A stretch of DNA of 64,000 nucleotides. Source: Candidatus Babeliales bacterium. Its GTDB lineage: Bacteria; Babelota; Babeliae; Babelales; JANWKD01. A program made the position numbers. Below, one piece after another: positions 18,001 to 21,000 of this stretch. The number at the start of each line of letters is the position of its first letter. The stretch's first letter is position 1. The DNA lies in NCBI GenBank assembly GCA_963762115.1, contig CAVXJH010000005.1:32001-96000 (forward strand). The letters run 5' to 3'.

Positions 18001-21000
18001 ATGGGATTATTTGGTGCAACCAACCACCATTCTGCCTGAAGGTCAACAAGAAACAAAAGAAGTCACGCAAAGATTTCATCAATTTTTAAAAGCATGGCAA
18101 GAACGACTTGATCTTTTTAAACCAAACACCGCTTTATCTGCTGCTATGGAATGGCTTAATGATGCAATCGCACACAATATGCAATTCAATAAAAATACGA
18201 TAGAACAACTTTTAGTTGCTCTATCAACGATGGCGCCTCATTTTAGCAGTGAATTGTTAGTCATGTTGGTGAATAAAAAATTGCAAGATTGCCAATGGCA
18301 AACTTATAATGCTGCGCTTGCACAAGAAGAAATGGTTATTATTGTTGTACAAATAAATGGTAAAATGCGTGCCAATCTTACTATACGACGAGATACTGAA
18401 CAAAAAATTGTTGAAGGTGAAGCTGAACAACTTGCATTCAAATGGCTTGAAGGGAAAGATATCAAAAAGATAATCTATGTTCCCAATCGTTTGGTTAATT
18501 TTGTGGTGCAATAACATTCTTTATGAGGTGAGCATGCTGCGCTCACCTCACTTAACTAATAATACAACGTTTTTTTTTAGATTTTTTATGCATTACCGCA
18601 ATAGAAACATCTGCAATAACTTTACCACCTCGATCATAGATCTTGCCATCACGCAAATAACGAGTAGGACGACTTCTTTGCAAAAAATCATATAATTGAG
18701 TGAAATCATTTTCATAAAAACTACCATCGTCAAAATACGTTATAGCTTTATGCGTGGTGCCATCAAATTTTCCGCGTAATTTTCCATCTTCATTAACGTA
18801 GACCGTCACTTTTCTTTGTTCGCTTGCCTTATTCATACGGTCAACACAAATAGTTTTATCAGAACGCCATTGCTTACATAATCTTTCACGCATGTCGTCC
18901 ATGCCAAACATTGAACCTACACTGAAAAAAATCACTATAAAAAAGAAATTTTTATAGCTCTTCATAGCATAACTCCCAAAAAAATAATGGTTTTTATTGT
19001 TCCATTCATACTAAAAAGATTTCAATTCAAAATACAACAACATTTTCTTTTTCTTTTTCTCAACAAGGCCATATCTTCTGAGTCTTGCAACATCGCTGTC
19101 ACACTTCCAACATTTTTGCTCAACTGCTCGTATTTTGCCAACCTCACTTCATCCGAATCGCGCTGCCCAAGTCTTTTGCCATTTTCTACAGGCATATATT
19201 TTCCTCCACACAAAGTGCCAATATTGTGTTCTTCATCTTTGCTCTCTAATCTAAGCTTAAATGCTTCATATGCAAGCTTTAACTGTCCTTCTGGAAATTG
19301 CATTACCACTCTTTTTTTTTGTATATCAAATTTTGCTATTAATTCCCCAGCACGCTTCACCTTAATCGTACCATCGACATATTCCTGTTGTTCTAAAATC
19401 TCTAATGCCTGTTTTTCTAAACCCCGCCAATGTTCAAAAAAAAGCGCATCATCAACATCAACGTTACTTAAAAACATTTTCTTTTTTTCTTCTTTTTCCA
19501 TGCCATACAAAGAGACAAAAATAAATGCATAGAACACACCATTACCAATCACAAAATAATTTTTAATCTTCATCATTTCTCCTTATTACCAACAAGAAAA
19601 ACAACAGCAACATTTTTTATGTTCCTTTTCTTCTTTATCAATAAAATGATCATTTTCTGTTGCATTGGAACCATCATCAATTTCATCTTCATCAATGGGC
19701 AAAGGTTCCTGCAATAATTCTTTGAACTTTTCATAAGGGTAAACACGTTCAATTCTTTTTTTTTCGTTTTTTGGATCAGGAATTTTAACTGATGCTTGTT
19801 GCCACAAACCATTAAAACTACCCACCGTTAGCTCTTCCTTATTATGCAAACTAACTGAATTTTTTGAAAGTAATGACTGTGCCATATATTCAGCAGCCTT
19901 TTCTTTTTTAGGAATCCATATTCTTTTAACCGCATCATCACATGCTTTTTGATAGGCATCAAAGTCATTCTCCATTGCATATGAAAAAGTAATTAAGCAC
20001 ATGAAGGCAAAAAAATAGATTATCTTTTTTTGTTTTTTCATGAGTATGACTCATGTAATAAAGACAACAAAACAACAATAGAAGCACAACTATTATCCAT
20101 AAAAATCTCCCCCTTATGAATCCCCGTTAAAACAGATTTTCTGTTTTTTCTATAAAACTCACTATAGTAAGTTTTATAAGTACAAAGAAAGGTTTTTATG
20201 CATTTTATACATGTTGTGCAAAGAATTTTTTTTAAGAAACGATAATATACCAACCATGCTGAAGGAGCGCTTTCACGCGCAAAAATTCTTGCTTAAATTC
20301 ATTATCGAGATGCGATAACCGAACATAAACATCATCACGTAAAATCCAAGGATCAATACCACGACTTTTAGAAGGCAACCACATATCATAGTGTGTTTCA
20401 TCTCCCAATGTCACTTTGAACGTATTTTTTAATCGATGCAATAAAAACTGTATAGTTTTATCTGATGAATTTGAAAGAATATGCCATACATCTTCATCAC
20501 AAGAAAAATGAATAACATGATCAGAAAGAAGACCTATTGATAAGCCATATTTTAACAGTTCTCCGGTATAACGATTAATTAAAAGATCATATGCTGAACC
20601 AAAATGAAATTCTGTTAAATGCAAGGGAATCATCGCCAATTTTTTTGCCAGAGCTACATCGGTGAAAAACCAACGACCATGCGCAAAATGCAAATCAGCA
20701 ACAATAGTTGAAATCTCTTCAGGTTGTAGTAAAAGATCAATCACCGCACCAAACATGTTATAATCTAAACGATCTGCACAAAGTTCCGGCAAATCTTGCT
20801 CTAAAGCCGTAAATTCAGCATTCTTGTGTAAAATATCGGTGATTAAAATGCCATGTTTTTTTAAAATTTCAGGAATTTCCGTTTGCTGCAAAAACCATTC
20901 ATGAATATCATCTTGATAAGAACCAGTCAATGAATGATGATTATACACAATCTCACCAGTATGCGAAAAAACCGTATGAGAAACATCATGCAGCAACCCT

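What a model noticed while it worked through the whole genome (the two positions that open the first line are those of the whole stretch)
18552..19573. Exported effector candidates end in a polybasic CaaX box (typically K/R-rich + C-I-I-S): predicted lipidation by the hos [...]
Seventeen of the 243 proteins with the [A/G/S]-Met-Glu export signal (and about five more effector-like proteins) end in Cys-aliphatic-aliphatic-X, most often ..K/R-K/R-x-C-I-I-S, e.g. the neighbours g00623 (..HKKSKKKRCIIS) and g00624 (..RKRKRKCCCILN) here, ankyrin proteins g00492, g00793, g01111 (..KKERCIIS), g00407/g00408, WD40 proteins g00042 and g01407 and the Skp1-like g00050 and g00368. Bacteria have no protein prenyltransferase, so this eukaryotic motif implies that these proteins reach the host cytosol and are farnesylated there to anchor on host membranes.
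Evidence so far: Regex C[AVILMFSTC][AVILMFSTC]X at the very C-terminus: 17 of 243 motif-bearing proteins against 10 of 1,184 others (odds ratio 8.8, Fisher p 9e-8); per-position rate of the tetrapeptide in the proteome 0.45%. Seven of the 27 end in exactly CIIS and six more in C[IL][IV][SNQ], most preceded by several Lys/Arg (listing in call 153). Of the 10 'others', g00368, g01280 (..KSKCIIS), g00327, g01225, g01226 are also unknown or repeat proteins, while g01349 (ribosomal S8), g01276 (MreB fragment) and g00033 look like chance. No KDEL-like or CC/CXC ends in the set. No listed paper holds CaaX together with Dependentiae/Babela/TM6/Babelota; 'prenyl' does not occur in the Babela paper.
(Added by a program. 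Inside this text positions count along the whole contig: contig position 32,001 is position 1 of the stretch shown here. "Call 12" and the like, gene names such as g00115 and contig names such as C1 are that model's own, and its searches are not shown. The text may have been shortened before it was handed on; [...] marks where a part breaks off. The agent that wrote the report below was given it as the finding of a first reader that could run no searches.)

Follow-up and report, generated by a model that had tools for sequence, protein, structure and literature searches.

The report
Babelota exported proteins with prenylation tails
A bacterium from a phylum known only as parasites of protists encodes about twenty proteins with predicted export signals, including a small-protein family of no known kind, that end in a conserved eukaryote-type lipid-attachment motif, so the host cell likely adds a lipid that would anchor them to its membranes, although no marker gene for an injection needle was found.

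Summary
In my own gene calls, 16 of 234 export-motif proteins end in CaaX against 11 of 1,219 others, and only at the exact C-terminus. A second genome of the genus gives 9 of 169 against 5 of 1,134. In 8 of 13 divergent orthologue pairs the Cys at -4 is kept, and the other letters change in 7 of the 8.

New here: the two window genes and a third neighbour ending in a Cys string form one family. Each has a signal peptide, a 74-residue domain with no clear structural match, a linker and a tail. The family occurs in 9 of 261 Babelota genomes; 22 of 30 non-redundant members end in CaaX.

The genome has type II secretion genes, and no type III, VirB type IV, type VI or TolC marker was found. Best reading: Sec/type II export, then host prenylation (inferred, 0.78).

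Corrections: 'polybasic' fits only 5 of 16 proteins, and the enrichment is strong in this genus but weak in other sampled genera. The principle is known from Legionella and Salmonella. The scan's notes hold no Babelota case, only a pandoravirus parallel.

The parts
18552..18965 (-).
   Evidence: orthologue in G001 36% identical but without CaaX; library relative P0017 keeps KKSKKKRCIIS
18555..18590 (-). Tail of gene A: HKKSKKKR followed by CIIS directly before the stop codon
   Evidence: read
18675..18896 (-). 74-residue family core of gene A; predicted helix-helix-four strands-helix
   Evidence: pLDDT 96
19022..19576 (-). Gene B (g00624), 184 aa: predicted signal peptide (aa 1-25), mature start Met-Glu, family core (19241-19456), tail
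   Evidence: G001 orthologue about 30% identical ends KKKKCWCCSLN
19025..19060 (-). Tail of gene B: RKRKRK, two further Cys (predicted S-acylation sites), then CILN
   Evidence: read
19586..20041 (-).
   Evidence: four library relatives also end in Cys strings
19589..19618 (-). Tail of gene C: KKCCCCFSCW (predicted S-acylation string, or a five-residue CaaaX)
   Evidence: read
16070..18514 (+). Convergent 814-aa housekeeping gene (leucyl-tRNA synthetase; the label is recalled from its motifs, not from a family scan) that anchors synteny; a family gene lies beside it in G001 and G003

Best explanation
These proteins carry a predicted Sec signal peptide and a conserved C-terminal CaaX box, are likely exported through Sec and the type II secretion system into the protist host's cytosol, and would there be prenylated by the host (mostly farnesylated) and anchored to host membranes. 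Shown: the motif, its enrichment, its conservation, the family, and the secretion-gene inventory. Inferred step 1: cleavage after Ala/Gly/Ser leaves a Met-Glu/Asp start in the periplasm. Inferred step 2: exit through the type II secretins or in outer-membrane vesicles, then passage across or out of the vacuole. Inferred step 3: host farnesyltransferase modifies the Cys for X = S/Q/N, and geranylgeranyltransferase I for the X = L members in G250. Inferred step 4: a basic patch or extra S-acylated Cys picks the membrane, as in the two-signal anchors of Ras proteins (established knowledge, recalled). The tail is a portable module on ankyrin, WD40, Skp1-like and orphan bodies. The window family is most likely a non-catalytic binding domain held on a flexible linker at a host membrane, probably the one around the bacterium; its partner is unknown.
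For: Enrichment at the exact terminus only, at family level and in G001 (9 of 169 vs 5 of 1,134). Cys at -4 is kept in 8 of 13 reciprocal-best pairs under 60% identity, against an identical -4 residue in 8 of 67 control pairs (p 3e-4); 7 of the 8 changed other letters. The seven CIIS ends have seven different codon strings. An upstream Cys or four or more K/R occurs in 11 of 25 versus 49 of 378. Of 30 genome-derived family members, 22 end in CaaX with varied letters, and 2 of 3 members first found with a tail-free profile and read afterwards end in CSIQ. CIIS in a yeast Ras2 reporter needs farnesyltransferase (PMC11152559 passages). The genome has two secretins, two GspE-like ATPases and two GspF genes. 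Type II is reported as the only secretion system of Babela (PMC4378268). Legionella type II substrates reach the host cytosol (PMC5478897 abstract). For a binding role: only Trp is near-invariant in the core, and G145 carries the domain in tandem copies.
Against: No lipid, localisation or expression data; the host is unknown. A Sec/type II route ends in the vacuole lumen if the cell stays enclosed, and Babela bodies were seen in a vacuole. Five of 13 orthologue pairs lack the box, including gene A's orthologue in G001. Six of 30 genome members and 9 of 18 library-only clusters have no Cys tail. Outside the genus the rate is low: 1 of 97 motif proteins in seven sampled genomes and 2 of 50 versus 6 of 796 in 51 loci (p 0.08). 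A VKOR gene suggests an oxidising periplasm that the Cys must survive. Signal peptides were called by my own pattern, and position -3 is mostly Leu/Ile rather than Ala. Part of the family was gathered with a profile that included tails, which favours tailed members.
Confidence: 0.78

Rival explanations
1. The tail is a bacterial sorting signal, cut by the genome's own Rce1-like (CPBP) membrane protease and lipidated by the bacterium to hold the proteins on its own envelope, as for MYXO-CTERM-type Cys signals.
For: G000 encodes a 1,128-aa multi-pass protein with an Rce1-like domain, two genes from one CaaX gene. Such proteases process Cys-containing signals in other bacteria (Haft, 10.1101/2023.06.07.544157, abstract). 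No host access would be needed.
Against: Those signals are tripartite (motif, transmembrane helix, Arg cluster), whereas these tails have no helix and put any basic residues before the Cys. The protease family is found in 167 of 261 genomes while the small family is in 9. It was not found in G249 or G250 (93-94% complete), which carry CSIQ, CTIL and CAIL members.
Confidence: 0.07
2. The terminal cysteines are selected for other chemistry (host S-acylation only, disulfides in the periplasm, or metal binding), and the CaaX look is incidental.
For: Gene C and its relatives end in Cys strings without Cys at -4. An upstream Cys is enriched (6 of 25 vs 27 of 378). VKOR is present.
Against: Most tails have a single Cys fixed at -4 with an aliphatic a2 and a small polar X, and offsets 1-12 show no excess.
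Confidence: 0.09
3. Paralogue inflation, chance, or leftover tails of genes taken from eukaryotes or giant viruses, with no present function.
For: Three ankyrin and five small-family proteins are paralogues. The loose pattern has a 1.4% false rate in shadow ORFs.
Against: The signal survives family-level counting. It is conserved at 28-51% identity with letter turnover, and it sits on a family with no hit in Pfam, PDB sequences or the ESM Atlas.
Confidence: 0.06

Closest known systems
Legionella pneumophila AnkB and Pel/CMP effectors (PMC2916131 and PMC13081727, passages read)
   Same: Bacterial proteins of a protist parasite with a C-terminal CaaX box, including ankyrin proteins; there, host prenylation anchors them on the cytosolic face of the vacuole, also in Dictyostelium.
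   Different: Legionella injects them by Dot/Icm type IV secretion (7 Pels in one strain, at least 11 over four strains, of about 368 effectors). Here they carry predicted Sec signal peptides, about 20 occur in a 1.5-Mb genome, only type II/type IV-pilus genes were found, and nothing is shown experimentally. Sequence homology to them was not tested.
Salmonella GtgE (PMC13423502, search listing and start of abstract) and SifA (prenylation recalled)
   Same: CaaX-dependent membrane association of a bacterial effector.
   Different: Type III-injected (recalled), single proteins in an animal pathogen; not a family with interchangeable tails.
Ras/Rho-type hypervariable tails, e.g. yeast Ras2 ending CIIS (PMC11152559, passages)
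   Same: Identical tetrapeptide in seven proteins; basic patch or neighbouring Cys as a second signal.
   Different: Only the tail is mimicked; the bodies are ankyrin, WD40, Skp1-like or orphan domains.
[quoted passage not shown]
   Same: Exported bacterial proteins with an invariant Cys near the C-terminus; an Rce1-like protease in the genome.
   Different: No transmembrane helix or trailing Arg cluster here; the Cys is fixed four residues from the end.

Membership tests
CaaX prenyltransferase substrate | Cys exactly four residues from the free C-terminus | tested here: met
   genes A and B yes, gene C no
CaaX prenyltransferase substrate | Aliphatic a2 and an accepted X residue | tested here: met
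   a2 = I/L/V in 23 of 25; X = S 13, Q 5, N 3, W 2, G 1, Y 1; protist enzyme preferences not tested
CaaX prenyltransferase substrate | Second membrane signal upstream (basic patch or extra Cys) | tested here: inconclusive
   Present in both window genes, but in only 11 of 25 overall, versus 49 of 378
CaaX prenyltransferase substrate | Exposure to eukaryotic cytosol and a covalent isoprenoid on the Cys | not testable with these tools
   needs labelling or mass spectrometry
Injected host-prenylated effectors (AnkB/Pel, GtgE type) | Delivery by a type III or type IV injection system | tested here: not met
   No FHIPEP or VirB4-family match in a 95% complete genome; Dot/Icm-specific markers were not searched. 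It works like them but is not filed as a member.
Injected host-prenylated effectors (AnkB/Pel, GtgE type) | The bacterium has no CaaX prenyltransferase of its own | tested here: inconclusive
   No PF01239 match; no PF00432 match, but nothing rang in the controls
Injected host-prenylated effectors (AnkB/Pel, GtgE type) | Eukaryote-like interaction domains on the tagged proteins | tested here: met
   Among 20 scanned, ankyrin is the leading hit in 6, WD40/propeller in 4 and Skp1_POZ in 1, with a second Skp1_POZ on one WD40 protein; some are below Pfam cut-off. None on the window genes.
Injected host-prenylated effectors (AnkB/Pel, GtgE type) | Sequence homology to the known effectors | not tested
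   no direct comparison was run
Type II secretion substrates | Cleavable N-terminal signal peptide and type II core genes in the genome | tested here: met
   pattern-based signal call; secretins, GspE-like ATPases and GspF, with best NCBIfam scores to type II models but under their cut-offs
Type II secretion substrates | Secretion depends on the type II machine | not testable with these tools
   outer-membrane vesicles are an alternative (PMC6561590 passages)
Cys-containing CTERM sorting signals | Motif, transmembrane helix, then Arg-rich cluster | tested here: not met
   tails listed have no hydrophobic helix after the Cys
Cys-containing CTERM sorting signals | Cognate Rce1-like protease co-occurring with the signal | tested here: inconclusive
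   present in G000 and in 167 of 261 genomes; not found in G249 or G250, which carry tails

The most novel reading that the evidence does not exclude
Babelota deliver their signal-peptide proteome to the protist cytosol in bulk through Sec plus a two-secretin type II system, with no injection needle. They address it inside the host with portable lipid-anchor tails (farnesyl, geranylgeranyl, prenyl plus acyl, Cys string) swapped onto a dedicated small binding-domain family. The tails then act as built-in reporters of cytosolic delivery in a phylum without genetics, and the X-residue spectrum of a genome (S/Q/N here, L in G250) may fingerprint its unknown host's prenyltransferases.
Probability: 0.4. 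Interest if true: 0.78.

Novelty: new variant of a known kind. Interest (0 to 1): 0.62.

Why it matters
Babelota are a parasitic phylum in which type II is the only secretion system reported (for Babela), and whether their many signal-peptide proteins (44% of genes in Chromulinavorax) reach the host cytosol is assumed rather than shown. A modification that only a host cytosolic enzyme can make, kept under selection on exported proteins, is sequence evidence that they do. It also gives a genetics-free test: label an infected protist with an isoprenoid probe. It would extend host prenylation from injected effectors to a Sec/type II route and to a new phylum, and it defines a compact effector-candidate family with modular anchors. 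The principle itself is known, which caps the score.

Tried and rejected
Family identity of the window proteins: no Pfam hit (apart from a sub-threshold Bflower match in the G001 orthologue of gene A), no PDB sequence hit better than E 0.44, and no usable Atlas hit. The protein search gave only two close copies of gene B and one longer member.

Fold: the full-length model of gene B was poor (pLDDT 52). The core model was confident, but Foldseek gave nothing at E <= 0.001 in PDB or viral models. The best VIA match, a type VII secretion chaperone (9dct; Z 6.8, rmsd 2.1, 68 aligned), lies within the range of common arrangements, so no function is drawn from it and the fold is not claimed to be new.

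Rejected ideas: that tail-less members use an amphipathic basic helix (10 tails versus 373 controls; moment p 0.06, charge p 0.10), and that the enrichment is phylum-wide (weak in the samples). The promoter scan was at chance level.

Markers not found in G000: TolC, VipB, DsbB.

Literature: Dependentiae + CaaX gave 0 papers. None of the 25 listed of 1,478 papers in a loose search held both a Babelota term and a prenylation term (weak). Searches listed no Sec/type II prenylated effector. No prenyl, farnesyl or CAAX word, as searched, occurs in the main texts of PMC6561590, PMC4776705 or PMC4378268. Their supplements and Table S1 of PMC2916131 were not read, and subscription journals are not in the library.

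A count of tails over whole genomes across the phylum was not done, so the phylum-wide rate is open. No complex prediction, read mapping or run search was made.

Full report
Setting. The window lies on contig C5 of a 1.53-Mb, 95% complete genome. Many of the closest named records for the neighbouring 814-aa synthetase are titled Babeliales or Dependentiae, so the organism is placed in Babelota. All cultured members of that phylum infect protists (PMC12172432, passages). The host of this genome is unknown.

Observation. Genes A (18552-18965) and B (19022-19576) end in HKKSKKKRCIIS and RKRKRKCCCILN. A third neighbour, gene C (19586-20041), ends in KKCCCCFSCW. Independent gene calling gave 1,453 genes and 27 loose CaaX ends. 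These fall on 16 of 234 proteins with a hydrophobic N-terminus plus small-Met-E/D/Q and on 11 of 1,219 others (p 3e-7). The excess is confined to the last four residues, and the tight pattern C[IL][IV][SNQ] occurs 13 times against 0.1 expected and in 0 of 1,826 shadow ORFs. The loose pattern hits 25 of those shadow ORFs, so several of the 27 are chance; S8, the MreB fragment and the CCLE protein are the clearest. Several of the 11 'others' have signal-like N-termini, and two have a signal-like segment in another frame just upstream. About twenty proteins is therefore a fair total. Family-level counting keeps the effect. The basic patch is real on average but present in a minority (5 of 16).

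Selection. G001, of the same genus and read over its whole chromosome, gives 9 of 169 versus 5 of 1,134. Among reciprocal-best pairs under 60% identity, 8 of 13 keep Cys at -4: CSFQ/CSLQ, CLIS/CIIS, CAIS/CAVS, CAVQ/CTIQ, CVLW/CVLW, CIIN/CSLQ, CTLQ/CILQ and CILN/CSLN. Only 8 of 67 control pairs share their -4 residue. Five pairs lack the box, among them gene A's orthologue. Over both genomes a2 is I/L/V in 23 of 25 and X is S/Q/N in 21 of 25, and 11 of 25 have a second signal against 49 of 378. Outside the genus the trait is thinner: 1 of 97 motif proteins in 200-260 kb samples of seven genomes (p 0.04 against the genus), and 2 of 50 versus 6 of 796 in 51 loci that I assigned to Babelota by title and identity. 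The 26 other loci gave 0 of 4 and 1 of 328.

The family. Genes A, B and C share a roughly 74-residue core with six G000 members in all. A profile of the core alone matches 9 of 261 Babelota genomes in three families. After clustering at 65% identity, 30 genome-derived members remain: 22 CaaX, 1 other Cys at -4, 1 Cys string, 6 none. The 18 library-only clusters give 6, 1, 2 and 9; two of the 9 are proteins of 1,222 and 1,394 aa and probably spurious. The seeds and the library search were partly chosen with tails in the profile, which biases these counts upward. The three members first found by the tail-free search and read afterwards gave 2 of 3. Members in family f3 lack the tail, and G145 repeats the core in tandem. 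The predicted core is helix-helix-four strands-helix (pLDDT 96), with no clear structural match. Only a Trp is near-invariant, which favours a binding module over an enzyme (inference). A variable linker joins it to the tail.

Delivery. G000 has two secretins, two GspE-like ATPases, two GspF genes and pilin-like genes. No FHIPEP, VirB4-family, VipB or TolC match was found; Dot/Icm-specific markers were not searched. This agrees with PMC4776705 (two gspD in all seven genomes; passage) and PMC4378268 (type II the only system; passages). Prenyltransferases are cytosolic (established knowledge), so a selected CaaX box implies that Sec-exported proteins reach the cytosol. Three routes are possible: a bacterium lying free in the cytoplasm or shedding vesicles, as described for Chromulinavorax (PMC6561590, passages); a leaky vacuole, as for Legionella type II substrates (PMC5478897, abstract); or an unknown step. 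Which applies cannot be told here.

Mechanism. Shown: signal-like N-terminus, CaaX enrichment, conservation, family and secretion genes. Inferred: cleavage to a Met-Glu start, type II export, cytosolic access, host prenylation, and membrane choice by a basic patch or S-acylated Cys. CIIS depends on farnesyltransferase in a yeast Ras2 reporter, and GGTase-I prefers L/I/M at X (PMC11152559, passages), so most tails here would be farnesylated. Confidence 0.78.

Rivals. The first is a bacterial sorting signal cut by the genome's Rce1-like protease. The tails lack the tripartite form, and the protease does not track them; 0.07. The second is other Cys chemistry, which the fixed -4 register argues against; 0.09. 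The third is chance, paralogy or transfer remnants; 0.06.

Comparison and novelty. Host prenylation of bacterial effectors is established for Legionella AnkB and Pels (PMC2916131, PMC13081727; passages) and for Salmonella GtgE (listing). The 2010 paper surveyed pathogens with type III-VII systems; its Table S1 was not read. This set works like them but fails the injection-system criterion as far as tested. I found no Babelota report and no Sec/type II case, within an open-access library and without supplements. The scan's own notes hold no Babelota CaaX finding; one unchecked pandoravirus note is a parallel. Verdict: real, well supported by sequence, untested at the bench; a new variant of a known kind; interest 0.62.

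Noticed in passing
G000:C7:138571-141957 (+): 1,128-aa multi-pass membrane protein with an Rce1-like (CPBP) domain and apparently intact EExxFR, FxxxH and HxxxD motifs (motif names recalled); same-length homologues occur in many Babelota. Substrate unknown.
   Followed up: partly
G000:C3:457976-459744 (-): Two tandem 290-aa genes that look like signal peptidase I paralogues (label recalled from the motif, not scanned). One may serve the Leu/Ile-x-Ala/Gly/Ser-Met signal class.
   Followed up: no
G000, whole proteome: After the predicted cleavage site the second residue is E 138, Q 34, N 26, D 20 of 372. Met-Glu/Gln/Asn/Asp is the recalled consensus of eukaryotic NatB N-acetyltransferase, so both ends may suit host enzymes; speculative.
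   Followed up: partly
G000:C3:333365-334576 and C3:18071-18919 (-): A propeller-like protein ending CLIS and a NADAR-domain protein ending CIIQ each have a signal-peptide-like segment in another frame just upstream: frameshifted genes or assembly errors.
   Followed up: partly
G000:C6:89536-89922 (-): A VKOR gene is present while no DsbB was found.
   Followed up: partly
window 18525-18549: Perfect 9-bp inverted repeat between the convergent synthetase gene and gene A (read); it has no T-run and was not called by the terminator scan.
   Followed up: no
window 21377-22031 and 22038-23227 (+): A transaldolase-like and a glycosyltransferase-like gene (labels recalled) each appear split over two overlapping frames.
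   Followed up: no
L247, L262-L268 (G145:C5 about 115000-118000): Cluster of exported proteins carrying one to five tandem copies of the family core and no CaaX.
   Followed up: partly
L261 (G003) and L258 (G004): Arrays of four and three family genes; six of the seven end in different CaaX words and the seventh in CNLY.
   Followed up: yes
protein P0016: Its tail (NVAVVVF) reads like the alternative frame of a Cys run, as seen over gene C's tail; possibly a frameshifted member.
   Followed up: no
G000:C7:66437-66832 and orthologues: Ribosomal protein S8 ends in C-S/T-I/V-W in five genomes and is a recurring false positive of the loose pattern.
   Followed up: yes
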